Below, piece by piece: positions 2 through 61,652 of a stretch of 64,000 nt of DNA. The stretch spans positions 570 to 64,569 of the IMG/VR virus record IMGVR_UViG_3300045978_000375; one strand, written 5' to 3'. Position 1 is the first letter of the stretch, and each line of letters starts with the position of its first letter. Origin of the DNA: a virus. The notes under the pieces were generated by a model. The model saw nothing but the letters and a program-made list of their open reading frames with translations, had not been told where the DNA came from and made no database searches. The position numbers and the translations under genes are program-made.

Positions 2-562
2 CAGGCTGCGCTCAAGGCTGGCGTGGTTGCGGGCTTCTGGTTGGAGGTTGTAGGGGTCCTCTCCGAAGCGGGCCGAGAACGGCTCCTAGCCCGCGAGCGG
101 CGTGTTTCCATCCAGCTCTCGCACAACGCGCTCGTCGGGGAGGACGACCCGAACGTGCTCGCCGACCTCTACATGCCCCTTCCGCTCGACGAAAAGCAGT
201 ACTCGGGCCTCACGGACGACGCCCTGAAAGCAGCCGACCCGCTCGACATCGCCTCGCTGTCGGCCGGCGCAGTCGCCTATCAAGAGCTTCAGCTGCTCTT
301 TCTGCCGGAGGACGCAGCCGTCTTTCGCGCCGCACTGGAACGCATCAAGAAGCGCGCCGGCAAGCTCGCCAAGGTCGATGTGCTGGTCGCGGCCCTTGCC
401 GACTTCGAGCGGCTCTTTGACGCCTGCGTGCGCGTGAAGGAGCAGCGGAACGTGCACAACACGGCCCTCGCCGTCCGGGTGATGGCAGAACTCGCGCTCG
501 AGCGCCTCGAGGAGCTCGCAGGGTCGGAGGAGCCGGCTCAAGGTCAGGTTGAGGGTTCGTGA
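2..562 (+). CDS. hypothetical phage protein (5' end probably outside window)
   Basis: Frame open from the window edge to TGA 560-562. GC-rich third positions. Stop overlaps the GTG of the next gene (GTGA). Confidence 0.5.
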   Translation, partial: QAALKAGVVAGFWLEVVGVLSEAGRERLLARERRVSIQLSHNALVGEDDPNVLADLYMPLPLDEKQYSGLTDDALKAADPLDIASLSAGAVAYQELQLLFLPEDAAVFRAALERIKKRAGKLAKVDVLVAALADFERLFDACVRVKEQRNVHNTALAVRVMAELALERLEELAGSEEPAQGQVEGS

Positions 563-9470: not shown

Positions 9471-9824
9471 ATGCCCACGGCCGCCGAATTCCGACTCCAC
9501 CAAGCCCGCCTGACCGGTCAGCGGGAGCAACTCGCCTCATTCAGCCAGACGCTCCGAAAGAACCTCGCCGCCTGGCGGGCGCAGGAGGCGGAGCGTCACC
9601 CCATTTCCCGCGCTCTCTGCTTCTCCCTGAACGAGGCTTGGATCGCGCGCATCGACTCCTTTCTCGCCGACACCGACGCGCTCGTGCAGGCGCTTGTCCA
9701 GCAAGAGTCGCTCATCACCGACCAGGCGCGAGCCGCCGAGGATGCCGAGCGCGCGCCACCAGCACCACCGCCCGAACCACCGGCGCCCCCTCAAAAGACC
9801 CCGACTAAACGGCGCCGCCGGTGA
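9471..9824 (+). CDS. hypothetical helical protein with Pro-rich basic tail
   Basis: 117 aa. Stop coupled to the portal GTG (GTGA). Confidence 0.45.
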   Translation: MPTAAEFRLHQARLTGQREQLASFSQTLRKNLAAWRAQEAERHPISRALCFSLNEAWIARIDSFLADTDALVQALVQQESLITDQARAAEDAERAPPAPPPEPPAPPQKTPTKRRRR

Positions 9825-11356
9825 GCTCCTTCCTCCCCTTCGTGCGCCAGGGCCGCGATGGCGAGCTCTGGTTTCGGACCGGAGGCCCTCTCACCGAGCG
9901 CTGGGTTGAAACGCCCAACCCGGTCCTCGAGCAGGTCCGGGCCTATTACGGCACGAGCCTCACGCCCGAGCTCATCGAGCGCGTGATCTGCATGGCCGAC
10001 TCGGGCTTCATGCGCGACCTCACCGACCTCATCTACGAGGCCTGCCGCGTCGACCCGCATTTTTCCATGTGCGACGGGAAACGCCTGCGAGCCGCGGCCA
10101 GCATCGAGCCGACCGTCGTCCCGGCGAGCGGCGACTACATCGACCCGGCCCTCGCGGCCACTTACGCCGATGCCGTACGCCAGCAGCTTACGTGGCTGCC
10201 GAACCTCCGGCAAACGCTCCTACGTTTCAACTGGGGGCATAAATTCGGGCGCGCCGCGAGCGAGCTCGTCTGGGGCGAGGTGAAGTCTCCACGAGCGCCG
10301 TTCAAGTGGCGCATCGAGCAGGTGAACTGGATCCATCCCCGCCGTCTCGCGTTCGGCCCCGACCGGGAGCTCCGCGTGCGCGATGACATGTGGGGCGGCT
10401 ATGGCTTCGAGGCGAAGGGGCTCGCGCTGCGCGACTACCCCTACAAGTTCATCGGGTTTTTGCCGCAGCTCTTCAACGAGTACCCCGAGCGGGAGGGGTA
10501 CGGCGTCCGCGGGCTCTACCACTCGTTCTTCAGGCGTTTCGGCTGGCGCGAGCAGCTCGTGCTCTGCGAGGTTTTCGGCCGGCCATGGAAGATGCTCGGC
10601 CCAAAGGATGGCGTCTCCGTCTCAAAAGAAACCCTCGATGATGCCGCGCAGAAGATCGACCAGGCCGGTGCGAACGCAACCCTCGTGCGCCCGCCCGGCA
10701 CCGAGCTCGATGTCGTCCAGCCCGTGCAAGGCGCCGGACAAGTGCACAAGGACGTGAAGCAGGAGGCGAACGATGAGATCTCGAAGCTCGTGCTCGGCGA
10801 GGTCCGAACCTCCGACGCAAAGCCCGGCGCGATCGGTAGCCAGGGCGAAGAAGTCGCGCTCGAGGTGCTCTCGGAGGTGAAGGCGCAGGACTGCTGGAAC
10901 CTCTCCGACATGCTGACCGAGGGCATCGCCGTGAATCTCATCAAGCTGAACTTCGGCGACGAGAACCTCGACCACTGCCCGCGGATCTCCCTGCCCTACG
11001 AGCCGCCGCCGAACCGCACTGAGGAGGTCGAGCGGACCGAAAAGGCCTTCTCGATTGGCGTGCCGCTCCTCGAGGACGAGGTCTACGAGCGGATCGGCTT
11101 CACCAAGCCGGAGCCCGGAGACGCGGTCGTAAAAAAGCAGGAGCCGCCGCCCATGCCGGGCCTCGGCGGCCCGCCAGGTGCGCCACGTCCAGCCGGCGCC
11201 ACCGAACCCACCGAGGAGCCGCAGCTTTCCGCGCCGCCGTCCTTCGAGCCCTACGCGCGCGCCGCTCATGTGCTCGAGCTCGCCAGGTACGCGAGCGCCG
11301 GTGAGCGGCTCGTGCGGTCGGTCGTCCCGAATCCCGAGCCGCCGGCGAGCGAATGA
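9821..11356 (+). CDS. portal protein (Mu gp29-like)
   Basis: 511 aa, immediately upstream of and coupled to the MuF gene. Size and position match the Mu-type portal. Confidence 0.75.
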   Translation: MSSFLPFVRQGRDGELWFRTGGPLTERWVETPNPVLEQVRAYYGTSLTPELIERVICMADSGFMRDLTDLIYEACRVDPHFSMCDGKRLRAAASIEPTVVPASGDYIDPALAATYADAVRQQLTWLPNLRQTLLRFNWGHKFGRAASELVWGEVKSPRAPFKWRIEQVNWIHPRRLAFGPDRELRVRDDMWGGYGFEAKGLALRDYPYKFIGFLPQLFNEYPEREGYGVRGLYHSFFRRFGWREQLVLCEVFGRPWKMLGPKDGVSVSKETLDDAAQKIDQAGANATLVRPPGTELDVVQPVQGAGQVHKDVKQEANDEISKLVLGEVRTSDAKPGAIGSQGEEVALEVLSEVKAQDCWNLSDMLTEGIAVNLIKLNFGDENLDHCPRISLPYEPPPNRTEEVERTEKAFSIGVPLLEDEVYERIGFTKPEPGDAVVKKQEPPPMPGLGGPPGAPRPAGATEPTEEPQLSAPPSFEPYARAAHVLELARYASAGERLVRSVVPNPEPPASE

Positions 11357-13077
11357 GGACCTCGGCCGAGGCGGCCGACGAGCTCGAGGCGTTCGGCCTG
11401 TTCTATGGCGCGCTCGCAGCGCGGCGGTACTACGGCGAGCACGTCTGCCTCGCCGTCCACCCGGACGAGGCTAACGGCTCCGTCGAGGACCTGGTCGAGC
11501 GCGGTGTCGACCAGGGCGCCGCTATCACGGCCGGCTGGGCTGAGCAGATCCTCGACGCCGTGGACGACCGCTCCTCGGTGCAGTCGATCCTGACCGCACT
11601 CGGCGAGCTCGAGAGGCGCCTCGACCTGGAGGAGTTCGCCCGCGTTGTCGAGCAGCAGATCCTCCACGGCGCCATGCTCGGCGTCCTCGATTCCGAGTGG
11701 GAGCGCGAGCACGACGAGGACATCGCGCCGGCGCGCTTCGCCGAGCCGCAGCCGTTCTCGGGCGTGCCCTACGAGGACGCCCGGAGGCTCTTCGACGCGC
11801 GGCAGGTCCTACCACGGCCCGCCTTCGACGCGCTCGAGCAGGGGGCGAGGCGGCAGGCCTTCACGGTCGCCAGGATGGCGTCGGCGGAGATGCTGAACGT
11901 CACGAAGGCCGAGCTCGCCCGGCAGCTCGCGCACGCCCGTGACCGTCCCGTCGTTGGCCCGGACGGCGTCGCGCGGCGCGAGGGCTTCAACCTCAGGACC
12001 TTCCGGAAGTTCGCGAAGGAGCGGCTCGAGAGCGCCGGCTGGACGCCAGCCAATAAGTCGCACGTCGAGACTGTCTTTCGCACCAACGTGATCGGCGCGC
12101 TCGCGTCGGGGAGGTTCGTCGAGATGCGCCGCCCGGAGGTGCTGTCGGCACTGCCGTACTGGCAGATCCGTGGCGTCAGCGACTCACGAACGCGCCCCAC
12201 GCATAAGGCCGCCTTCGGCATCATCCTCCCAGCGGATCACCCGTTCTGGCGCACAGCGTATCCGCCATTTGGTTACAATTGCCGCTGTGGTGTAACCGCT
12301 CGCTCGGCACGATGGCTCGAACGGTCTGGAAAGTCAATCGGGCCGGTGCCGAAGGACCTGCCGGATCCAGGCTTCGACTCGGGGACGGACCGGCTCATCA
12401 GTGTGCCGAGCGCCGCGCTCGAGCCCGCGCGGCCCGAGCAGCCAGCGGCGCCCAAGCGGCCGCCTTGGATGCACTCGCCCCCACCGCCGGAGCCGGTCAC
12501 GGCCACCGAATTCGAGCGTAGCGCGACGCTGTATGAGCAGCGCGTAGTGGGTGCGGGAGAGTTCCTGAAGACGAGCGACCGCTTCGAGGTGCTCGAGAAG
12601 TACACGGACTCCGACTATCTGTCTATCAACAGATCCCTGCTGTTTACGGACGCTCCAGTTACCAACCAGACTCGGCAACAGGTCGCGGATCTACAGCATC
12701 TCCTCGCACAAGCGAGGGTCGCCGGACACGCGTTCGAGGGTGCCGTGTACCGCGGGGTAGCGGTACCACCAGAACTCCTCGCGCGCTGGGCTTCGGAAGA
12801 GGTCATCGAGTTCGCTGCGTTCACCTCGACGACGACGGTCGAGCGCATGGCGTTGTTGTTTACGAGTCCGAATCGCGATGAGGTGCGGGTCCTCTTTCAG
12901 ATTCGACAGCGGTCAGGCGTGCCGGTCGGCACGGTATCGTCTACGCCTGGTGAATCCGAGATTCTCCTGCCATCCGGCAAGAGGTTTCGCCGAATTGGTC
13001 CGGTGCGCGTTGAAACACGTGGAAGTGCGACGAACCCGAAAATCGTGAACGTCATCGATCTCGAGGAGCTCGATTAG
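11353..13077 (+). CDS. MuF/SPP1 gp7-like head morphogenesis protein fused to a C-terminal ADP-ribosyltransferase-like domain
   Basis: MuF core YWQIRGVSDSRTRPTHK...GYNCRCGV. C-terminal R/STS/ExE triad: YRG (12748-12756), FTSTT (12820-12834), ESE (12952-12960). Confidence 0.8.
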   Translation: MRTSAEAADELEAFGLFYGALAARRYYGEHVCLAVHPDEANGSVEDLVERGVDQGAAITAGWAEQILDAVDDRSSVQSILTALGELERRLDLEEFARVVEQQILHGAMLGVLDSEWEREHDEDIAPARFAEPQPFSGVPYEDARRLFDARQVLPRPAFDALEQGARRQAFTVARMASAEMLNVTKAELARQLAHARDRPVVGPDGVARREGFNLRTFRKFAKERLESAGWTPANKSHVETVFRTNVIGALASGRFVEMRRPEVLSALPYWQIRGVSDSRTRPTHKAAFGIILPADHPFWRTAYPPFGYNCRCGVTARSARWLERSGKSIGPVPKDLPDPGFDSGTDRLISVPSAALEPARPEQPAAPKRPPWMHSPPPPEPVTATEFERSATLYEQRVVGAGEFLKTSDRFEVLEKYTDSDYLSINRSLLFTDAPVTNQTRQQVADLQHLLAQARVAGHAFEGAVYRGVAVPPELLARWASEEVIEFAAFTSTTTVERMALLFTSPNRDEVRVLFQIRQRSGVPVGTVSSTPGESEILLPSGKRFRRIGPVRVETRGSATNPKIVNVIDLEELD

Positions 13078-13265
13078 CGAAGTTTCCCCGTCTCGAGCGC
13101 GTTCGACTCGAGAATTCGCGCCTCTTGCTTCGTGAGCAATCCATCCTGCACGAGCTCCCTCAAGAGTTTGCGCGTGAATGGCGCCGCCGCGAGCCTTCGT
13201 TCGACAGCGAGCTCACGCTCGGTTTCGAGCGGGTCCGTGGTCGCGTCGCCCGACTCCGTGGCCAT
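13074..13265 (-). CDS. small antisense ORF, candidate immunity/antidote to the MuF toxin domain
   Basis: 63 aa, ATG at 13265, TAA overlapping the MuF TAG tail-to-tail. GC-rich third positions. Only minus-strand ORF that fits a gap in the late operon. Confidence 0.45.
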   Translation of the reverse strand: MATESGDATTDPLETERELAVERRLAAAPFTRKLLRELVQDGLLTKQEARILESNALETGKLR

Positions 13266-13345
13266 GCATGGATCCTAACCAGGGACCGCGGCCGTTGCAA
13301 GCCATGGGGGTCACGTCACTTGCGCGGCGTCCAGATTGCCCGGCA

Positions 13346-15034
13346 ATGGCCGACCAGCGGCTCCTCCGGCTCATCCCGACGGGAAGCTTTCTCGGCGCCG
13401 TCTTCGGCGCTGCCGTGCCCATTCCGAAAGCGACGGCAACCGACCTCGAGGACGGTAAGCGCGTCTGGCTCCAGGCGGCCTATGAGGGGGAGTTCAAGGG
13501 CTATCGGATCCCGATGAAGCTCACCGCGGCCTTCTTCGCCGCGATGATCGCGAACCTCCGAGCGGACCCGCAATTCCGGGCCGGCGATGACGGCTACGGC
13601 GCGCAGCCGGTCGTGCGCATGGACTACGAGCACGCCTCGGCGATGCCGCCGTCGGAGGGGTCCATTCCCGCGCAAGGTGCACCGGCGCCGGGCTGGGTGT
13701 GCGACATGGAGGTCCGAGCGGGCAAGGAGGGGAGGCTCGAGCTCTGGGCGCTTTGCGAGCTCGGCACTCAGCTCACCGAGCAGATCAAGGCCGGGGAGCA
13801 GCGCTTTCTGAGCATCGAGGCGCCGCTGAAGTCGAAGGACCCGGTCACCGGTGAGGACCGCGGCCCGAAGCTGAATGCACTCGCCGTCACGAATAGCCCC
13901 TTTCTCCGCGACCTCGAGCCCATGCGGATCGCTGCGTCGATGAGCGTCTGGGGGAAGGCAGAGACGACGGCCGAGCTCGTCGAAGGGATGCGCGGGATTC
14001 TCGAGATGCCCGAGACCGCGACGCCCGCCGACATGAAGGACTACCTCGAGGCGATCGGCGTCGCCTACCAGAACGGCGTGCGCCCGCCCGGCTACCCCGA
14101 CGGCCTCGGCGGCGTGCTCGACAGCGTTCGTCGCTTGGTCGGTCTGACAATGCTCGCCACCGGCGAACAGATCGTGGCGGCGGCGGGTCAGCAACTCGAC
14201 ACCGCGTCAGCTTCGGTGGCGACGACGCCGCTCCCGGCGGCTCAACCCCAAGGACCCGCTGCGATGACTGCATCTGCTACCCCCGACAAGCTCCGAGTCG
14301 CTCTCGTTGCCCTCTTCGGTTGCGTGGACCACGACGACGTGATCCTCGCCGAGGCAACCAAAGCCAAGGGCGGGCTCGCCGCGCTCGGCGACCTCATGAA
14401 GAAGTACGGCGCGGCCGACCACGCGGACCTCGCCACGAAAGCGATGGCGGCCCGGGACGAGGCTGCCAAGACGGCCGAGTTTGCGACTAAGCTCGGCGAG
14501 GCCCTCGCCGCGCTCGACAGTGGCGTGCAGGAGGAGGCAAAGAAGGACACCGAGGCCGTGGCTGCCTCGTGTGGCTTCGCCGCCGAAAACAAGGGCGCGC
14601 GCACCGTCATCCTCTCGCAGCTGCTCGAAGCGCGTCGCGCCGCTCTCGGCATCGTAGCCGAAGAGAACGAGGGCAAGCTCGAGCTCTCCTTCGGCAAGCC
14701 GAACGGCGCGAAGCTCGAGCTCTTCTGGCAGAACTACCCGAAGCCGGACGCGAAGAAGGTCGTGCTCTCGACCAGCATCGTCGCCGGGCAAAACGGCGCT
14801 CAGCTCGGCGGCCCGCACACGGGCCTGCAGCAGAAGCCCGTCGGACAGCAGCCGCCCGCCGGCGCCGATCAGGAGCCCGAGCACATCGCGGCGCTCGCGA
14901 ACTACCCGGGCCCGAACCCCATCGCAAAAGCCATCGCGTATCTCAGCGAGAAGCTGCCGGGGTTCAAGTCGCTCGACTGGGGCACGCAGAACTTCCGCGC
15001 GAACCAGTACGTGCTCACCGGAAAGGCAGCCTGA
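13346..15034 (+). CDS. prohead protease / scaffold protein (Mu gpI/Z-like)
   Basis: Start at internal ATG 13346 (MADQRLL...). N-terminal domain followed by an Ala/Glu-rich helical scaffold-like C-half. Position lies between MuF and capsid. Confidence 0.6.
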   Translation: MADQRLLRLIPTGSFLGAVFGAAVPIPKATATDLEDGKRVWLQAAYEGEFKGYRIPMKLTAAFFAAMIANLRADPQFRAGDDGYGAQPVVRMDYEHASAMPPSEGSIPAQGAPAPGWVCDMEVRAGKEGRLELWALCELGTQLTEQIKAGEQRFLSIEAPLKSKDPVTGEDRGPKLNALAVTNSPFLRDLEPMRIAASMSVWGKAETTAELVEGMRGILEMPETATPADMKDYLEAIGVAYQNGVRPPGYPDGLGGVLDSVRRLVGLTMLATGEQIVAAAGQQLDTASASVATTPLPAAQPQGPAAMTASATPDKLRVALVALFGCVDHDDVILAEATKAKGGLAALGDLMKKYGAADHADLATKAMAARDEAAKTAEFATKLGEALAALDSGVQEEAKKDTEAVAASCGFAAENKGARTVILSQLLEARRAALGIVAEENEGKLELSFGKPNGAKLELFWQNYPKPDAKKVVLSTSIVAGQNGAQLGGPHTGLQQKPVGQQPPAGADQEPEHIAALANYPGPNPIAKAIAYLSEKLPGFKSLDWGTQNFRANQYVLTGKAA

Positions 15035-27410: not shown

Positions 27411-27737
27411 GTGTCGTGCGCCCTGCCGTCGCTCTCGTTCCCGGCAATCCCGGGGCCAGCGCTACCAGGCGTCGGCGTGCCCCCGCTGCCGATACCGCCA
27501 ATCCCCATCGGCGGCTTCGGTGGGCTCCCGTCGCTTGCTTTCCCCGCTGTGCCTGGCCCTTCGCTGCCGAGCGTCGGCGTGCCGTCTCTGCCAACCGTTC
27601 CGCTGCCAGTGGGTCCCGGCCTGGCGCTCGGTGGCCTGCCATCTCTCGGGTTTCCAGCGATCCCGGGGCCAAGCCTGCCGGCCGTGGGAGTGCCTTCTCT
27701 GCCTGGCATCCCTCAGCCGTACTGCCCGCTCGACTGA
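27411..27737 (+). CDS. Pro-rich triple-repeat small protein
   Basis: GTG start abutting the upstream stop. Three copies of LPSL(S/A/G)FPA(I/V)PGP(A/S)LP.VGVP(P/S)LP. The other frames look like Arg-rich artefacts. Confidence 0.4.
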   Translation: MSCALPSLSFPAIPGPALPGVGVPPLPIPPIPIGGFGGLPSLAFPAVPGPSLPSVGVPSLPTVPLPVGPGLALGGLPSLGFPAIPGPSLPAVGVPSLPGIPQPYCPLD

Positions 27738-27785
27738 ACATCCGGTTCCTTGACCGATGAGGGGAGGAGACGCACCCTGCCTAGG

Positions 27786-28541
27786 ATGCGTTTACAGACG
27801 TCTTTGGTGCTCCTCTTGGTTGGGTGCGGGGGTAACTCGGTGGACGCACCAGCGGGCGCGGAGCAGGCGGGAATGGGGGGGTTCGTGGTGGTGGGTGGTT
27901 CCGACTCAAGTGGCGGGTCGGGCGAGACAGCTGGAGCAGGCGTCGGCGGTGCAGCGAGTGGTCGTGGCGGCGCGGGCGCAGCGGGCATGTCGGGCAAGGG
28001 TGGCGCGGCAGGTGCGAGCACTGCTGGGCGTGGTGGTAGCAGCGGCACGGGCGGCGCAGCGGGAGCCGGCTCTGGTGCGGGTGGAGCTGGCACAGGCGGC
28101 AGTGCTGGTACTGCTGGTAGCGGTGGAGGCGCTGCGACCGCCTCTAGCGGTAGCGGCGGCGCTGGCGGAGCCATGGTGGGGGCCGGTTCCGGTGGCTCCG
28201 ACACGGGGGGTGGCGGCGCGAGCGCTGGCACCGGCGGCGAGGCTACGAGGTCCCTTCTCGGGTGCGGCGAATCGGCAAGCGGTTACCCGTGCGGCCCCGA
28301 TCAGTACCTTTGGAAATGCCCCGACGAGGCGCAGCCGGTCGGACCGTACACCGGCCTCGGGCCTACCAACTATCCGGATGTTGGCTGCGAAAGCGCCGGT
28401 GACGAGAGTGAGTGGTGTTGCGACGCTGCCGTGATTCTAGACACGCGGCTAGTGCCGGCCGACGTCTGTCCACCGAACCAGCAGCCCTTTCAGTTCAACG
28501 ATAGGCCCGACGGTGAGTACGTTTGCGTAGGAGTGATCTGA
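27786..28541 (+). CDS. lipoprotein with Gly/Ala/Ser-rich linker and Cys-rich C-terminal domain
   Basis: MRLQTSLVLLLVGC lipobox signal. About 120-aa G/A/S low-complexity region. C-terminal domain with 10 Cys. The TTG at 27750 is an alternative start. Confidence 0.6.
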   Translation: MRLQTSLVLLLVGCGGNSVDAPAGAEQAGMGGFVVVGGSDSSGGSGETAGAGVGGAASGRGGAGAAGMSGKGGAAGASTAGRGGSSGTGGAAGAGSGAGGAGTGGSAGTAGSGGGAATASSGSGGAGGAMVGAGSGGSDTGGGGASAGTGGEATRSLLGCGESASGYPCGPDQYLWKCPDEAQPVGPYTGLGPTNYPDVGCESAGDESEWCCDAAVILDTRLVPADVCPPNQQPFQFNDRPDGEYVCVGVI

Positions 28542-45292: not shown

Positions 45293-45733
45293 TCATCCAG
45301 CTCGGGTGCCGGACGAGCTTGGCCTAACCCCCGTGCTCGGAGGGTCCGGGGTTGCCTCAGCTGCTTCCACTGCCATTAGAAAGCTTCGCCACTGCTCAGC
45401 GGTGCGCGCCCCACGGGCTGCCTTGGCTGCGGCTCGAGCGGCTGGGCTCCACTCGCGCTCCGCGAGTACCACCTCGAGCGCAGTCAGCCGAGTTCGGCGC
45501 GGCGCCCCTCGGCCGCTCACGAGCCAGTGCAGGTCAACGTTGTTGCCCTCGGCGATTTTCCGGTGAACGTCGCCTGTGCCGGGGACTTTATCCGGACGCT
45601 TGTCGCTTTCCCGCACGAGTCGCGAGACCGTCTGCCGCTTGAGCTTGGCGTTCTTCGCTACGTCGGCAACGCTCAGCTTTCCGGAGCCGCCGTTCTCTTG
45701 GATCCAACGGATGCGGTCAGCGAAGCTGCGCAC
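45293..45733 (-). CDS. cI-like HTH repressor
   Basis: GTG 45733. HTH LSVADVAKNAKLKRQTVSRLV and ...DLHWLVSGRG. Divergent from the Cro-like gene. No S24 peptidase domain seen. Confidence 0.6.
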   Translation of the reverse strand: MRSFADRIRWIQENGGSGKLSVADVAKNAKLKRQTVSRLVRESDKRPDKVPGTGDVHRKIAEGNNVDLHWLVSGRGAPRRTRLTALEVVLAEREWSPAARAAAKAARGARTAEQWRSFLMAVEAAEATPDPPSTGVRPSSSGTRAG

Positions 45734-45749
45734 CCGAGGGAGACTGCTA

Positions 45750-45765
45750 GGCAATTGTCGTTGCC
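45750..45765. promoter_or_regulatory. operator-like dyad GGCAA-N6-TTGCC upstream of the repressor gene
   Basis: Same dyad as in both cassettes. Lies in the spacer of a possible TTGCGG-N17-CAGTCT-N7-GTG leftward promoter. Confidence 0.5.
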
Positions 45766-45780
45766 GCAAGGCGAACACGC

Positions 45781-45819
45781 TTGACAATATCTGTTGCCAT
45801 GGCAATATGCGTTGCCGTG
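45781..45819 (+). promoter_or_regulatory. PR-like promoter-operator cassette
   Basis: TTGACA-atatctg-TTGCCatGGCAA-tatgcg-TTGCC-GTG. Perfect -35 hexamer, two overlapping dyads, start codon immediately after. Confidence 0.6.
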
Positions 45820-46131
45820 AGCGTAGGTGAGCGAATCGCCCTGGTTCGGGGCTTGTCTGGTCTGTCGGCAGCTGAACTTGGGCGCAGAGCCGGGCTCTCG
45901 AGGGGCACGCTGCCTCTCCTCGAAGCCGGCACGAACAAGCAGCCGGGAGCGAAAACGCTGCTCGCACTGAGCCAGGCGACGGGGGTCCCGATGGAGTGGT
46001 TCTTGGCTGGCACGGGTGACGCACCGACGCCTGAAAGCGTGAAGGCGGCACTCGGAATCTCGAACGCCGAAGACCCATCCCCCGACTCCAACGCCCAGCC
46101 GAACGGCAAGGCGAAGGAGCCGGCAGCGTGA
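45817..46131 (+). CDS. Cro-like XRE-family HTH protein
   Basis: LSAAELGRRAGLSRGTLPLLEAG...LLALSQATGVPMEWFLAG. GTG 45817 preferred by analogy with the PL cassette. ATG 45799 is also possible. Confidence 0.6.
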   Translation: MSVGERIALVRGLSGLSAAELGRRAGLSRGTLPLLEAGTNKQPGAKTLLALSQATGVPMEWFLAGTGDAPTPESVKAALGISNAEDPSPDSNAQPNGKAKEPAA

Positions 46132-47351: not shown

Positions 47352-48203
47352 ATGGCCATCGAGATCAAGCACCGATTCACAGGCACAGTCCTCTTCAAGA
47401 GCGAAACTGCCAAGAGCACGCGCGAAGCCGTGATCGAGGCGGTTTCCGCGGGCGCCAACCTCGCGCGCGCCGACCTCGCGGGCGCCAACCTCGCGGGCGC
47501 CAACCTCGCGGGCGCCGACCTCGCGGACGCCAACCTCGCGGGCGCCGACCTCGCGGACGCCAACCTCGCGGGCGCCAACCTCGCGGGCGCCAACCTCGCG
47601 CGCGCCGACCTCGCGGGCGCCGACCTCGCGGGCGCCGACCTCGCGGGCGCCAACCTCGCGCGCGCCGACCTCGCGGGCGCCGACCTCGCGGGCGCCGACC
47701 TCGCGGACGCCAACCTCGCGGGCGCCAACCTCGCGGGCGCCGACCTCGCGGGCGCCGACCTCGCGGGCGCCGACCTCGCGGGCGCCCGATCTCTGCCTGC
47801 GGGCACCGAAGCGAAGGACCCTCCAGAGCCCTACGATCGCAACCGAGCGATCGATTACGCCGCACGTGCAGTCAGGTATCGCGAGCGCCACCCGGACGTT
47901 CCAGTCGTCGAGCGGCTCGACAGCAGGATACTCGAAGCCATCACGACCGGCGGCTGCACGCTGGAGATGGGTTCGTGGCACCAGTGCGAAACCACACATT
48001 GTCGTGCGGGCTGGGCGATCCACCTCGCAGGTGAGCCCGGATATGCGCTGGAGCGGCGGTACAGCGCGGAGCACGCAGGGCGGCTGATCTACCTCGTGAG
48101 CACGGGTCGTTGCCCGCATTTTTTCGCGACTAATGAGAGAGCGCTTGAGGATATCCGGCTCTGCGCCGCACGCGAGCAGCAACCCGAGGGAGCAAGCGCG
48201 TAG
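47352..48203 (+). CDS. pentapeptide-repeat protein with Cys/His-containing C-terminal domain
   Basis: 22 consecutive A(G/R/D)A(N/D)L pentapeptides (47448-47777). C-domain contains GSWHQCETTHCRAGW ... GRCPHFF. Confidence 0.85.
   Translation: MAIEIKHRFTGTVLFKSETAKSTREAVIEAVSAGANLARADLAGANLAGANLAGADLADANLAGADLADANLAGANLAGANLARADLAGADLAGADLAGANLARADLAGADLAGADLADANLAGANLAGADLAGADLAGADLAGARSLPAGTEAKDPPEPYDRNRAIDYAARAVRYRERHPDVPVVERLDSRILEAITTGGCTLEMGSWHQCETTHCRAGWAIHLAGEPGYALERRYSAEHAGRLIYLVSTGRCPHFFATNERALEDIRLCAAREQQPEGASA
47448..47777 (+). repeat. 22 tandem near-identical 15-bp units (coding pentapeptide repeats)
   Basis: Units gcgggcgcc(a/g)acctc and variants. A 60-bp higher-order unit is repeated (ARADL AGADL AGADL A.ANL). 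Confidence 0.95.
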
Positions 48204-52352: not shown

Positions 52353-52702
52353 ATGACACCCGCCTCCTTTGCCCCGCCGACGTCTGCGAGCGCTTCGGAT
52401 GCTCGCTGCGAAAGGCACTCAAGATCATGCGCGAGGCCGGCGCGCGGAAGTCTGGCTCGATGGTCCGGCTCGAACCTGAGAAACTGGAGGCATGGTGGCT
52501 AGCGCAAAAGGCGACCGCTTCGGCTTCTGGCTCAGGGGACGGACCTGGTACACGTGCGATCCCGTCACCCGCCGCGACGTCTCGACCCGCTGCCGGGACC
52601 TTGAAGCTGCTCGAAGGTGGCGTGCGGCCCGTGAGCGTATTGCAGCCGATCCGGCAATCGCAGTCCAGGCGCTCGCGACGTTCGGGGACGAGTGCAGGAT
52701 GA
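52349..52702 (+). CDS. excisionase-like HTH protein
   Basis: GTG overlapping the upstream TGA. LLCPADVCERFGCSLRKALKIMREAG...VRLEPEKLEAWW. The frame runs 210 nt into the integrase gene. Confidence 0.45.
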   Translation: MNDTRLLCPADVCERFGCSLRKALKIMREAGARKSGSMVRLEPEKLEAWWLAQKATASASGSGDGPGTRAIPSPAATSRPAAGTLKLLEGGVRPVSVLQPIRQSQSRRSRRSGTSAG

Positions 52703-53814
52703 TGCTCGACGCGCTCGAAGCCCTGGGCCGCCCGACGGCCGACTACGAGCACCGGCTCGGGCACTGGACCCGCGTGCTCGGCAACGACTGCCCGCTCTCC
52801 GATGTCGGCCCAGCCGCCGTCGACGCGTTTATCGCGCAGCGCAGCGCCGAGGGGGTTACGAACCACACCATCTCGAAGGAGCTGAAGGCGCTCGTCAGGA
52901 CGCTCCGGCAGGCGAAGCGTGCTGGCCGGTACGCGGGGGCACTTGAGGTCCTGCGCCCGCTCGGCTTCACCGCCGGGTATGTGCCTCGGACACGCACCCT
53001 GACGCTCGTGGAGCTCCAGGTCCTGCTCGGCGAGCTCGAGCCGGAGGAGCGAGCGTTCGTCGTGCTGCTCGTCGCCTTTGGCCTGCGCCGGGGCGAGGCT
53101 GCCCGTGTGCTTCCCTGCGACCTCGATACTGCCAACTGGGTGGCCCGGGTGCGTGGGACGAAGACGGCCGGGGCTCTCCGGGACCTGCCCATCCTCGAGC
53201 CCTTCCGGCCGCTCGTCGAGGCGGTCCTGCCCTACCTGCCGCTCGGCGCCTGGGTGCGCTCGACCCAGTACACGCGGGTCCTCCTCCGGGCGGCGGCGCG
53301 CGCCAAGCTCGAGCCGGTGACGGCGAACGACCTCCGCCGGACCCATGCAACGCTGCTCCGGAACTGGAAGGTGGACCGGGACACGGCCCGGACGCTGCTC
53401 GGGCACTCGCCGAAGTCGCAGCTGCTCGAGACCGTCTACGACAAGCCGAGACCCCACGAGCTCGCTGCTCGCGCCGGCGACCTCTCCGCCCTCACGGTCG
53501 CCCTGGCCCCGATTGCAGAATCACTGCAGTCGGCACCAAAAACATCCACTTCTCTCGGAGAAACCCGCGGCAGTGAACCGCCATGGGGGCCGACCTATAG
53601 CCCCGCCGGGTCTGCCTCGCCAGTGTGTTCGCGGGGTTACGGGCCAGGAACTGGCCGGGAAGAGCCGGACACCAGCGCAGAATCACTGCAGTCGGCTGGC
53701 CCCGCGGCGTGGGCGCTTGAGTTCGCCCGTGAGGCGCTGAACGTCGAGCCGAAGGCGACCATCTTCCTTGGCACCGGCGTGATCCTCCGCCGCAAGAGGA
53801 GGGACGTTGGCTAA
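52492..53814 (+). CDS. int: tyrosine integrase with long C-terminal extension
   Basis: ATG after GGAGG. AFGLRRGEA (R), GTKTAG (K), LRRTHATLL, LLGHS (H), ETVYDK (Y). About 110 further codons cross a repeat-bearing region. Confidence 0.8.
   Translation: MVASAKGDRFGFWLRGRTWYTCDPVTRRDVSTRCRDLEAARRWRAARERIAADPAIAVQALATFGDECRMMLDALEALGRPTADYEHRLGHWTRVLGNDCPLSDVGPAAVDAFIAQRSAEGVTNHTISKELKALVRTLRQAKRAGRYAGALEVLRPLGFTAGYVPRTRTLTLVELQVLLGELEPEERAFVVLLVAFGLRRGEAARVLPCDLDTANWVARVRGTKTAGALRDLPILEPFRPLVEAVLPYLPLGAWVRSTQYTRVLLRAAARAKLEPVTANDLRRTHATLLRNWKVDRDTARTLLGHSPKSQLLETVYDKPRPHELAARAGDLSALTVALAPIAESLQSAPKTSTSLGETRGSEPPWGPTYSPAGSASPVCSRGYGPGTGREEPDTSAESLQSAGPAAWALEFAREALNVEPKATIFLGTGVILRRKRRDVG
53515..53534 (+). 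repeat. 20-bp direct repeat copy 1 (gcagaatcactgcagtcggc)
   Basis: Exact second copy at 53677-53696. Contains the internal dyad TGCAG-aatca-CTGCA. Confidence 0.9.
53677..53696 (+). repeat. 20-bp direct repeat copy 2
   Basis: Identical to 53515-53534. 162 bp apart, both inside the int ORF tail. Confidence 0.9.
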
Positions 53815-60749: not shown

Positions 60750-61652
60750 CTAAGCCGCCGCCGAGCGGCCAACGGAGGCCGCCCTCAGCGACAGGCGCAG
60801 CTTCGACAGCTGCTTCTCGATGAGCTCGAGCTGGTCGGCAACCGTTTCGGCGCGCGACGGTGAGACGCGCGCGACGATCACGGCCTCGTTGTCCTGGAAG
60901 CCGTCGCACAGGACGGCGACCAGGCGCTCGATCTTCTTGTCGAGCGCGGTCAACACGGCCCGCTCCTCGTCGGTCGGACCCATGCTGGCGAACATCGACG
61001 CCTGCTCGACGGGCGCCTGAAGCGCCGCTGGCCTGCCCTGCTGCTCCTGGGACTGAAGCCACATCGTCGTCGCCCGCAGCTGCTGGTAGGTCGGGCACTT
61101 GCCGTCCCGGATGGCCTGCCAGAGTACCCGCTGGTACGCGTGCCCGAGGCGCGCCATCTCGAACGCCTGCGATGGCGCGAGTACCTGCTTGGCGAGCGCG
61201 TCCTGGTACTCGGGCGCGAGCCTGAGGAGCGCGACACGCTCCGTGATGCGGTGCGCCTGCTTGATGCCGAGCCGGCGCGCGAGCTCTTCGACCGAAACCC
61301 CTTGATCGAGCCTGCGCTGGAACGCGAGCGCCTCCTCGAGCGGCGTGATGTCCTTCCGCTGTAGGTTCTCGATGATGGCGCGGTCCGCGAGGTCCTGGTC
61401 GTCCGTCTCCTCGACGATGCAGGCGATGGTCGCCCACCCGAGTCGGAGGTGGGCGCGGTAGCGGCGCTCGCCGCAGACGATCTCGAACTCACCGCCATCG
61501 ACTGGGCGGACCCGTATGGGCGTGAGCAGGCCGTGCTCCTTGATGGTCGCGGCGAGCTCGTCGAGCGCCGTCTCGTCGAAGTGTTTCCGCGGCTGGTTCG
61601 GGTTCGGCCGAACGTTCGCGATGGGGAGGACGCGGTACCCAGTGCGAGCCAT
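60750..61652 (-). CDS. parB: ParB/Spo0J-family protein (orphan, no ParA nearby)
   Basis: VRPNPNQPRK, IVCGERRYRA (ParB box II), HTH VEELARRLGIKQAHRITERV. Confidence 0.8.
   Translation of the reverse strand: MARTGYRVLPIANVRPNPNQPRKHFDETALDELAATIKEHGLLTPIRVRPVDGGEFEIVCGERRYRAHLRLGWATIACIVEETDDQDLADRAIIENLQRKDITPLEEALAFQRRLDQGVSVEELARRLGIKQAHRITERVALLRLAPEYQDALAKQVLAPSQAFEMARLGHAYQRVLWQAIRDGKCPTYQQLRATTMWLQSQEQQGRPAALQAPVEQASMFASMGPTDEERAVLTALDKKIERLVAVLCDGFQDNEAVIVARVSPSRAETVADQLELIEKQLSKLRLSLRAASVGRSAAA

What the first reader, a model, noticed from the sequence alone, without database searches (positions are those of the whole stretch)
13074..13345. Lone antisense ORF between MuF-ART and the protease gene: candidate immunity gene
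- From 559 to 38630 every credible gene is on the + strand and most are start/stop coupled.
- The one sizeable gap (13078-13345) is filled by a 63-codon minus-strand ORF (ATG 13265).
- Its TAA overlaps the MuF TAG tail-to-tail, and its third codon positions are about as GC-rich as real genes here.
- Toxin modules of polymorphic-toxin type are normally followed by a cognate immunity gene.
- The opposite orientation, with a promoter in 13266-13345, would allow expression in a lysogen independently of late transcription.
- The protein (acidic N-half, helical LLRELVQDGLLTKQEARILE) matches nothing I recognise.
Basis: inference. Interest (0 to 1): 0.65.

Follow-up and report, generated by a model that had tools for sequence, protein, structure and literature searches.

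The report
Antisense orphan gene beside phage toxin
A 63-codon reverse-strand gene with no known relatives sits just after a phage head protein that carries an ADP-ribosylating toxin domain; it is probably a real gene and may encode the toxin's antidote, but that role is untested.

Summary

**Is it a gene?** Length alone means nothing at 67% GC, since 86% of random gaps give such an ORF. Other evidence favours a real gene:
- Its codon usage (0.31 bits/codon) beats all 8143 random ORFs and 90 of 91 shadow ORFs. It also exceeds the adjacent ART-coding segment.
- The only TTGnnn-N17-TAnnnT match in the window lies directly upstream, placed for a leaderless mRNA.
- AlphaFold2 folds it as a confident three-helix protein; the opposite-strand control folds poorly.

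**Context.** The ORF and its promoter lie inside the hypervariable, lower-GC cassette that also carries the ART domain. Thirteen toxin-bearing relatives all have a gene in this slot:
- a DarG-like macrodomain after ART;
- a conserved 63-66 aa gene after a metallopeptidase domain;
- conserved minus-strand genes after ART in four loci.

**Limits.** The protein has no homologue anywhere, all contigs carrying it are identical, and binding or neutralisation could not be tested.

**Verdict.** Probably a real, independently transcribed cassette gene (about 0.75). Cognate ART immunity is the single likeliest role (about 0.4). This would be a new variant of a known kind, of moderate interest.

The parts
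13074..13265 (-). 63-codon ORF 'win_63' (MATESGDATTDPLETERELAVERRLAAAPFTRKLLRELVQDGLLTKQEARILESNALETGKLR). Soluble, pI 5.1, predicted three-helix protein. No relatives known.
   Evidence: ORF listed. Codon log-odds 0.31/codon versus nulls. AF2 pLDDT 83.9 with helices 12-27, 32-40 and 46-59, versus 61.9 for the opposite-strand control. No TM segment. No credible homologue.
13272..13300 (-). Sigma-70-like promoter match: -35 TTGCAA (13300-13295), 17-nt spacer, -10 TAGGAT (13277-13272). The -10 ends 6 nt before ATG 13265, so the predicted transcript is leaderless. The AGGA inside the -10 could instead act as a Shine-Dalgarno site for longer transcripts.
   Evidence: It is the only match of this pattern on either strand of the 64-kb window. 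Chance expectation is 1.7 per window. The stricter built-in scan (9 of 12 required) did not report it. Function not shown.
12430..13077 (+). Variable C-terminal part of MuF encoding the ADP-ribosyltransferase toxin domain, with R-S-ExE intact.
   Evidence: Pfam ART and ADPrib_exo_Tox. Invariant R83, S108, E150 and E152 in alignment A1. PDB profile hits to Vis, ExoT and 6dre_B/6drh_B, which from my own knowledge is Tre1. DNA homology with relatives ends at 12,283-12,429 in the four closest. GC 0.62 versus 0.70 for the MuF N-terminal part.
11353..13077 (+). MuF-ART gene (574 aa), coupled to the Mu-type portal gene upstream (9821-11356).
13306..13345 (+). Conserved leader of the protease gene (GGGTCA ... 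GCCCGGCA-ATG), present in five of the six relatives compared. It marks the right-hand edge of the window-specific cassette.
   Evidence: Upstream regions aligned by eye. blastn similarity to L003 resumes at 13338.
13346..15034 (+). Mu-like prohead protease/scaffold gene, the conserved right flank of the slot.
   Evidence: Mu-like_Pro_N on the called product. Homologous in L003, L005, L006 and L007.

Best explanation
**What it is.** win_63 is a real small gene that belongs to the exchangeable toxin cassette of this temperate-type phage. It most likely encodes the cognate immunity (inhibitor) protein of the MuF-borne ADP-ribosyltransferase.

**Proposed mechanism**
1. The MuF N-terminal domain rides on the portal and is packaged. 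The C-terminal R-S-ExE ART is delivered with the DNA into the next cell.
2. win_63 is transcribed from its own sigma-70-like promoter on the opposite strand, probably as a leaderless mRNA. It is therefore made independently of late transcription, in a lysogen and early in infection.
3. The 63-aa acidic three-helix protein binds the ART domain and blocks it. This protects the carrier cell from leaky or late-made toxin and from toxin injected by sibling virions. Pore-forming colicins use the same logic, with opposite-strand immunity genes.

**Shown**
- The ORF, its gene-like codon usage and a confident predicted fold.
- A positioned promoter match.
- Location inside the swapped lower-GC cassette.
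- An intact ART active site.
- Immunity-type genes in this slot in relatives.

**Inferred**
- Transcription and translation.
- Binding to the ART and neutralisation.
- Expression in the lysogen.
For: - **Codon usage.** 0.308 bits/codon. None of 8143 random ORFs and 1 of 91 shadow ORFs reach it. It is comparable to conserved slot genes in relatives (0.30-0.54). It is higher than the ART segment itself at 0.158.
- **Promoter.** The only TTGnnn-16..18-TAnnnT match in 128 kb of sequence lies at 13300-13272(-). Its -10 ends 6 nt before the ATG.
- **Fold.** AF2 single-sequence pLDDT is 83.9 versus 61.9 for the antisense control.
- **Cassette.** Homology to relatives stops at about 12,283-12,429 in the four closest relatives and resumes no earlier than 13,338. 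GC is 0.62-0.63 for both the ART part and the ORF, versus 0.68-0.70 in the flanks.
- **Slot logic.** Thirteen toxin-bearing relatives carry at least one gene here. One toxin-less MuF has none (L014).
- **Slot genes track toxin type.** A DarG-like macrodomain follows ART. A conserved 63-66 aa family follows the HExxH domain.
- **Minus-strand precedent.** Conserved minus-strand genes lie next to MuF-ART in L004, L008, L018 and L020. In L020 the stop overlaps the MuF stop by 4 nt.
- **Toxin.** ART R-S-ExE residues are intact, and the domain resembles arginine ARTs (Vis, ExoT) and 6dre_B/6drh_B, which I recall as the antibacterial toxin Tre1.
- **No alternative.** No macrodomain was found elsewhere in the window.
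[quoted passage not shown] The MuF-ART Bxa is neutralised by a small binder, Bsi, and a hydrolase, BAH (PMC11699363). Pore-forming colicin immunity genes are opposite-strand with their own promoter (PMC9517006, PMC4436062).
Against: - No homologue exists in any collection searched, so there is no co-variation or purifying-selection evidence.
- The two fetched copies are identical to the window over the 20 kb compared, and every contig found carries the identical protein.
- ORF length is expected by chance.
- The promoter match is only 8 of 12, was noticed post hoc, and was missed by the stricter scan.
- No terminator was found for the minus-strand transcript.
- The slot genes with a recognisable or toxin-linked immunity character in relatives are co-directional and translationally coupled to MuF.
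- Convergent transcription against a strong late operon would limit expression exactly when the toxin is made.
- ARTs injected by phages, such as T4 Alt, need no immunity gene (my own knowledge).
Confidence: 0.4

Rival explanations
1. A real, independently transcribed accessory gene ('moron') that happens to sit in the MuF-protease hot spot but does not act on the ART. It could be a small tri-helical DNA-binding regulator, a superinfection-exclusion factor or an anti-defence factor expressed from the prophage.
For: - It shares the gene-likeness evidence of the best explanation.
- The slot is a general insertion hot spot. L004 carries five minus-strand genes there, including a lipoprotein-like one.
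- The three-helix model weakly resembles homeodomain/HTH folds, but not significantly (best E = 1.1).
- The phage has a lysogeny-type gene set: integrase-family, Cro/CI-type HTH and ParB.
Against: - In the window's closest clade the slot holds exactly one gene, and it tracks the toxin type.
- The ORF shares the ART segment's lower GC and lies within the same swapped block.
- No DNA-binding family match was found.
- No terminator was found, although morons usually have one.
Confidence: 0.33
2. Not a gene. A chance open frame in a non-coding spacer, or in a decayed remnant left at the junction of a recombined toxin cassette. Gene callers annotated it only because the frame is open.
For: - 86% of random gaps of this composition contain an ORF of at least 63 codons.
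- No homologue among about 15 billion proteins.
- All copies are identical, so no selection signal is available.
- GC3 (0.77) is below backbone genes.
Against: - Codon-usage score lies 3.8 sd above random ORFs (0 of 8143) and above 90 of 91 shadow ORFs.
- No other frame in the gap scores positive.
- The promoter match is exactly positioned.
- The AF2 fold is confident, unlike the antisense control.
- Non-coding spacers at this junction are about 40 nt in the relatives with a co-directional slot gene.
Confidence: 0.22
3. The functional product is an antisense RNA. A transcript from the minus-strand promoter runs into the 3' end of the ART-coding region. It damps leaky late-operon or toxin expression by transcriptional interference or RNA pairing, and the ORF is incidental.
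For: The promoter-like site is convergent with the late operon. No terminator lies between it and the ART-coding region.
Against: - Codon periodicity indicates protein coding.
- Neither strand folds better than shuffles (z = -0.76 and +0.47), and there is no Rfam match.
- No conservation is available to test.
Confidence: 0.05

Closest known systems
MuF polymorphic toxin / immunity modules of temperate phages (Jamet et al. 2017, PMC5576092; Apk2-IapK-Aph1, PMC12226406; Bxa-Bsi-BAH, PMC11699363)
   Same: - MuF gene directly after the portal gene.
- Conserved N-terminal MuF domain with an exchangeable C-terminal toxin, here an ART as in Bxa and EFV.
- A small ORF of under 150 aa immediately after the toxin gene, inside the variable cassette.
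- A small, non-enzymatic helical protein, as expected for a 'structural' immunity protein like Bsi or IapK.
   Different: - The small ORF is on the opposite strand, convergent with MuF, and has its own promoter-like site. Described immunity genes are co-directional and co-transcribed.
- It belongs to no known immunity family and has no homologues.
- No enzymatic partner (ARH or macrodomain) accompanies it.
Opposite-strand immunity genes of pore-forming colicin operons (PMC9517006, PMC4436062)
   Same: The immunity gene lies between the toxin gene and the next gene of the induced operon. It is on the opposite strand and is transcribed from its own promoter, so immunity is uncoupled from toxin induction.
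   Different: From my own knowledge, colicin immunity proteins are integral inner-membrane proteins; win_63 is soluble. The toxin here is a cytoplasmic enzyme carried in a virion, not a secreted pore-former. There is no sequence relationship. This is an analogy of architecture only.
ART toxin with hydrolase immunity: DarT-DarG and Tre1-Tri1 types, seen here in relatives L003/L005
   Same: It sits at the same position relative to a homologous R-S-ExE ART domain (about 36% identity to the L003/L005 ARTs).
   Different: win_63 is far too small to be a macrodomain or ARH and shows no similarity to them. If it is an immunity protein, it must act by binding, not by reversing the modification.
Conserved two-gene slot module of related MuF-ART phages: family A (61-84 aa, always minus strand) and family B (109-121 aa, 'MWVFTxFGFFS')
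   Same: Small minus-strand gene in the MuF-ART/protease slot. In L020 it overlaps the MuF stop tail-to-tail by 4 nt, as in the window.
   Different: There is no sequence relationship (hhalign probability 0.2; z at or below 1.6). The window has one gene, not two. The function of families A and B is itself unknown.
Morons of lambdoid/HK97-type late operons (from my own knowledge)
   Same: An extra gene inserted between conserved late genes, with its own promoter-like site and atypical GC.
   Different: No terminator was found. The inserted unit includes part of a structural gene (the toxin domain), not just a free-standing gene.

Membership tests
MuF polymorphic toxin-immunity module | muf gene immediately downstream of the portal gene, with a MuF domain | tested here: met
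   Portal_Mu 9821-11356 is coupled to MuF 11353-13077. Phage_Mu_F scores 2.5e-13.
MuF polymorphic toxin-immunity module | Variable C-terminal toxin domain on a conserved N-terminal domain | tested here: met
   The N-terminal 60% is conserved at 51-79% identity while C-termini differ: ART, HExxH peptidase and others. ART Pfam hits and intact R-S-ExE.
MuF polymorphic toxin-immunity module | [quoted passage not shown] | tested here: met
   A 63-aa ORF abuts the MuF stop. It is on the opposite strand, unlike described cases.
MuF polymorphic toxin-immunity module | Homologues of the small ORF always accompany the same toxin type (co-variation) | tested here: inconclusive
   No homologue exists in any collection, so co-variation cannot be scored. 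Co-acquisition with the ART is suggested only by shared GC and cassette boundaries.
MuF polymorphic toxin-immunity module | The small protein binds or neutralises the toxin | not testable with these tools
No multimer tool was available.
Colicin-type opposite-strand immunity | Immunity gene between the toxin gene and the next operon gene, on the opposite strand | tested here: met
Colicin-type opposite-strand immunity | Own constitutive promoter | tested here: inconclusive
   The consensus match TTGCAA-17-TAGGAT is uniquely placed, but it is only 8 of 12 and activity was not measured.
Colicin-type opposite-strand immunity | Integral membrane immunity protein | tested here: not met
   The maximum 19-residue Kyte-Doolittle mean is 0.28 and GRAVY is -0.52.
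Macrodomain / DarG-like enzymatic ART immunity | Macrodomain fold or sequence motifs | tested here: not met
   The L003/L005 slot proteins match DarG. win_63 and the rest of the window do not.
Family A minus-strand slot genes of related MuF-ART phages | Sequence or profile similarity to L004_62, L008_61, L018_68 and L020_84 | tested here: not met
   hhalign probability 0.2. Shuffle z-scores from -1.0 to 1.2.
Moron | Own promoter and terminator, insertion between genes adjacent in relatives, atypical composition | tested here: inconclusive
   A promoter-like site is present. No terminator was found. Insertion and lower GC are met, but the unit also includes the toxin domain.

The most novel reading that the evidence does not exclude
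win_63 founds a new family of soluble ART inhibitors. It is encoded antisense inside a phage late operon and expressed as a leaderless mRNA from the prophage. This would give MuF-toxin phages a colicin-like 'constitutive immunity' that protects lysogens against toxin injected by sibling virions. Conserved minus-strand family A/B modules sit next to MuF-ART in four related phages. Together these would mean that opposite-strand immunity is a recurrent, so far undescribed, architecture of phage-borne polymorphic toxins.
Probability: 0.25. Interest if true: 0.6.

Novelty: new variant of a known kind. Interest (0 to 1): 0.42.

Why it matters
MuF toxins are a recently recognised, widespread class of phage-carried polymorphic toxins. 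What they do, and how carrier cells are protected, is largely open. Every described immunity gene is co-transcribed with its toxin in the late operon. That arrangement can protect the producer during assembly, but it does not obviously protect a lysogen from incoming virions.

An opposite-strand immunity gene with its own promoter would supply that missing kin protection. It would parallel colicin biology and add a new small ART-inhibitor fold. The comparison set assembled here gives concrete, testable toxin/partner pairs:
- ART with a DarG-like macrodomain;
- a metallopeptidase domain with a 63-66 aa gene;
- ART with the minus-strand family A/B module.

If the ORF proves to be unrelated to the toxin, or not a gene, the finding is an ordinary orphan ORF in a variable phage slot.

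Tried and rejected
**Homology searches for win_63, all negative**
- Word-indexed search of 5.8 billion clusters found only itself.
- Full HMMER search of 1.84 billion representatives found itself plus one spurious 31-residue match to a 2784-aa protein.
- Pfam, PHROGs, NCBIfam and PADLOC gave nothing significant. The best was CtsR_C at E = 0.025, below its cutoff.
- PDB by sequence, INPHARED phages by tblastn and IMG/VR gave nothing.
- Foldseek of the AF2 model against PDB gave a best E of 1.1.

**Relationship to slot genes of relatives, rejected**
- All-vs-all BLAST, Smith-Waterman with shuffles, and hhalign against family A found no link.
- The idea that the gap is a decayed + strand immunity gene or macrodomain was rejected. 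There was no tblastn signal, and all + frames have negative codon scores.

**Other ideas tested**
- An upstream extension of the protease gene into the gap was rejected. That frame has non-coding GC periodicity, and the relatives' N-termini align at 13346.
- A structured RNA was rejected: no Rfam match and folding z-scores near zero.
- A population-variation test was impossible. The two fetched copies (L001, L002) are identical to the window over the 20 kb compared, and all contigs found carry the identical protein.
- Searching with the ART domain alone returned nothing, not even its parent protein. This is a sensitivity limit of that tool, not a biological result.
- A family B homologue in the window's early region was rejected (hhalign probability 0.5).

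**Searches that added little**
- Single-protein scans of the genome and viral collections found no close relatives.
- The alignment scan of genomes gave only four distant loci.
- Host assignment failed.
- Promoter-like sites upstream of the relatives' minus-strand genes showed no consistent match.
Full report
**1. The observation**

The window is a 67% GC contig of an uncultured phage. The same sequence is held as JGI 3300045884 Ga0491417_0000182 (64.7 kb) and in Logan assemblies. The region reads as follows:
- Mu-type portal, 9821-11356(+).
- MuF, 11353-13077(+). It has Pfam Phage_Mu_F (2.5e-13) plus C-terminal ART (1.1e-6) and ADPrib_exo_Tox (2.1e-6).
- Mu-like protease/scaffold, starting at 13346.

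The 268-nt interval between MuF and the protease contains the ORF 13074-13265(-). It has 63 codons and an ATG start. Its TAA overlaps the MuF TAG by three bases. The ATG is the first possible start after an in-frame stop.

A self-trained gene map shows that every other gene from 23 to 38630 is on the + strand, with many 1-4 nt overlaps. Apparent gaps elsewhere hold + strand ORFs that my crude caller missed.

**2. Is it more than chance?**

ORF length is not evidence. When the gap is replaced by random sequence of the same dinucleotide make-up, 86% of trials contain an ORF of at least 63 codons. Composition is evidence:
- I built a codon log-odds model from 20 long genes of the window. The ORF scores 0.308 bits/codon.
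- None of 8143 ORFs in randomised gaps reach that score (mean -0.35, sd 0.175).
- Only 1 of 91 shadow-frame ORFs inside real genes reaches it.
- 15% of 63-codon windows from real genes score lower.
- No other frame in the gap scores positive.
- The score equals that of conserved small slot genes in relatives (0.30-0.54).
- It exceeds the adjacent, certainly coding, ART segment (0.158; GC3 0.72 versus 0.77 for the ORF).

AlphaFold2 without an alignment gives a three-helix model with helices at 12-27, 32-40 and 46-59. Mean pLDDT is 83.9, with 32 residues at or above 90. The opposite-strand translation of the same DNA gives 61.9, with no residue at or above 90. That is only one control.

The protein is soluble, with no membrane segment, and has pI 5.1.

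**3. Expression signals**

I scanned both strands of the whole window for TTGnnn (at least 4 of 6), a 16-18 nt spacer, and TAnnnT (at least 4 of 6). There was exactly one hit: TTGCAA-17-TAGGAT at 13300-13272(-). Its -10 ends 6 nt before ATG 13265. That is the spacing expected if transcription starts at the A of the start codon, giving a leaderless mRNA.

About 1.7 such hits per window are expected by chance. The pattern is therefore not enriched overall; its placement is what is notable. No other predicted gene has TAnnnT 5-8 nt before its start.

Caveats:
- The match is 8 of 12.
- I defined the pattern after seeing the site.
- The stricter built-in scan missed it.
- No terminator was found for the minus strand.

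The AGGA inside the -10 could serve as a Shine-Dalgarno site for longer transcripts. About 40% of genes here have such a core.

No Rfam family matches the region, and neither strand folds better than shuffles.

**4. Relatives and the slot**

The MuF protein has many metagenomic relatives. Their N-terminal 60% is conserved and their C-termini differ, which is the signature of a polymorphic toxin.

DNA similarity to the four closest relatives ends at window 12,283-12,429. It resumes no earlier than 13,338, eight bases before the protease ATG. A conserved leader (GGGTCA ... GCCGGGCA-ATG) precedes the protease gene in five of the six relatives compared. In the window it occupies about 13306-13345.

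The window-specific cassette is therefore about 12,430-13,305. It holds the ART domain, the ORF and the ORF's promoter-like site. Its GC is 0.62, with the ART part at 0.619 and the ORF at 0.63. The flanks are 0.68-0.70. This is consistent with the three parts arriving together.

Slot contents in relatives:

| Relatives | MuF C-terminus | Gene(s) in the slot |
|---|---|---|
| L006, L007, L012, L013 (78-79% MuF N-terminal identity for three of them) | HExxH metallopeptidase-like | One conserved 63-66 aa + strand gene, overlapping or abutting the MuF stop |
| L003, L005 (69-74%) | ART | 185-aa + strand gene, DarG-like macrodomain (PDB 5m31 E 0.004; NCBIfam DarG 4.5e-6; PADLOC DarG 3.5e-6) |
| L009, L011, L019 | ART | + strand ORF of 72, 52 or 80 aa |
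| L004, L008, L018, L020 | ART | Minus-strand genes (see below) |
| L014 | None (portal-MuF fusion) | No slot gene |

The minus-strand genes in L004, L008, L018 and L020 include two conserved families:
- **Family A** is 61-84 aa (L004_62, L008_61, L018_68, L020_84) and is always on the minus strand.
- **Family B** is 109-121 aa and starts 'MWVFTxFGFFS' (L004_121, L018_120, L020_109).
- In L020, the family A gene overlaps the MuF-ART stop tail-to-tail by 4 nt. It diverges from family B across a 24-nt spacer containing the palindrome GTGCTAG-TATC-CTAGCAC.

An antisense gene beside MuF-ART is therefore a recurrent architecture. win_63 itself is unrelated to family A (hhalign probability 0.2). It is also unrelated to every other slot protein.

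**5. The toxin**

All five aligned ART domains keep R (YRG), S (FTSTT) and E-x-E. The window's domain is 35-37% identical to each of the other four in that alignment, so it is a distinct subtype.

A profile of these domains matches several solved arginine ADP-ribosyltransferases:
- Vis, 1.7e-11.
- ExoT.
- The chain in 6dre/6drh, 5e-8. From my own knowledge this is the T6SS antibacterial toxin Tre1, crystallised with its immunity protein Tri1.

No macrodomain was detected anywhere in the window by tblastn.

**6. Homology of win_63**

There is none:
- It is the only member of its cluster among 5.8 billion clusters.
- Its only hit among 1.84 billion representatives, apart from itself, is a short match to a 2784-aa protein at E 5e-4.
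- It has no significant Pfam, PHROG, NCBIfam, PADLOC or PDB match.
- It has no match in cultured phage genomes or IMG/VR.
- It has no significant structural neighbour.

The two fetched copies are identical to the window over the 20 kb compared, and every contig found carries the identical protein, so no selection test is possible.

**7. Interpretation**

I judge the ORF to be probably a real gene, at about 0.75. Codon usage, the positioned promoter match, the confident fold and the tight gene packing at this junction in relatives all point that way. Only the lack of homologues points against.

For function, the slot logic makes cognate immunity to the ART the single most likely role, at about 0.4 overall:
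- The slot is filled in all thirteen toxin-bearing relatives and empty in the toxin-less one.
- Within the window's clade it holds exactly one gene, and that gene tracks the toxin type.
- The ORF shares the ART's cassette and GC.
- The ART looks active, and no other antidote is present.

Experimental precedent exists. The MuF-ART Bxa is neutralised by a small binding protein (Bsi) and a hydrolase (BAH) (PMC11699363). Apk2 is neutralised by IapK and Aph1 (PMC12226406). [quoted passage not shown]

The opposite orientation with its own promoter has a clear analogue in pore-forming colicin operons (PMC9517006, PMC4436062). There it uncouples immunity from toxin induction. Here it would allow expression in a lysogen. 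The phage has an integrase-family gene, a Cro/CI-type HTH gene and ParB.

Rival explanations:
- An unrelated moron or regulator: 0.33.
- A chance ORF: 0.22.
- An antisense RNA: 0.05.

**8. Membership and novelty**

As a system, the locus meets the structural definition of a MuF polymorphic toxin module. The immunity assignment fails the only sequence-based test available, co-variation, for lack of homologues. The functional test could not be run.

It is not a member of the colicin immunity, macrodomain or family A groups.

Interest is moderate at 0.42.

Noticed in passing
L003:6773-7330 and L005:5465-6019: A 184-185 aa + strand gene coupled to MuF-ART is a DarG-like macrodomain (PDB 5m31 E 0.004; NCBIfam antitoxin_DarG 4.5e-6; PADLOC DarG 3.5e-6; phrog_335 3.4e-13). 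It is a likely enzymatic immunity gene for a phage MuF-ART toxin.
   Followed up: partly
L004:7871-8618, L008:2648-2833, L018:6617-7185, L020:6616-7224: A conserved two-family module lies in the MuF-ART/protease slot of four divergent phages. Family A is 61-84 aa and always on the minus strand. Family B is 109-121 aa, starts 'MWVFTxFGFFSxVxHR', and occurs on either strand. Neither has a Pfam, PHROG or PDB match. Function is unknown; candidates are an ART-associated immunity or regulatory pair.
   Followed up: partly
L020:6871-6894: The 24-nt spacer between the divergent family A and family B genes contains the palindrome GTGCTAG-TATC-CTAGCAC, which looks like an operator.
   Followed up: no
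window 13306-13345 and the ~40 nt before the protease start in L003, L005, L006, L007: A conserved leader of the protease gene (stop codon, CGGGTCA, about 25 nt, GCCGGGCA, ATG) with no Shine-Dalgarno motif. In L003 and L005 it includes a hairpin, CCGGCC-CACAGT-GGCCGG. It may be a late promoter or a translation signal.
   Followed up: no
L006, L007, L012, L013 (MuF C-termini and the gene after them): The window's closest relatives carry an HExxH (HEExHG) metallopeptidase-like MuF C-terminus. It is always followed by a conserved acidic 63-66 aa + strand gene (PLGEPxxDDVEAAA ... DPDAV), a clear candidate toxin/immunity pair.
   Followed up: partly
P0007 (L005:2898-5459), P0011, P0019, P0038, P0046: Several MuF toxin proteins carry an intein-splicing domain (PF14890) between the MuF and toxin parts.
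   Followed up: no
window 27411-27737 and 27750-28541: Two unusual + strand ORFs in the tail region. One is a 108-aa Pro/Gly-rich repeat protein (PSLxFPAIPGPxLPxVGVP repeats). The other is a 263-aa protein with a lipobox-like signal (LLLVGCGG), a long Gly/Ala/Ser-rich stretch and a Cys-rich C-terminus.
   Followed up: no
window 47352-48203: A pentapeptide-repeat protein (Pfam 5e-31) in the early region. Proteins of this kind can mimic DNA, so it could be an anti-defence or gyrase-protection function.
   Followed up: no
window 45293-46131: A divergent pair that looks like a lysogeny switch: a weak MarR-like ORF (45293-45733, minus) facing a Cro/CI-type HTH_3 gene (45853-46131, plus). An integrase-family gene lies at 52492-53814 and ParB at 60750-61652.
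   Followed up: partly
L004:8945-9292: The first gene of the five-gene minus-strand cluster in the slot encodes a lipoprotein-like product (LVGC lipobox). It is a possible superinfection-exclusion moron.
   Followed up: no
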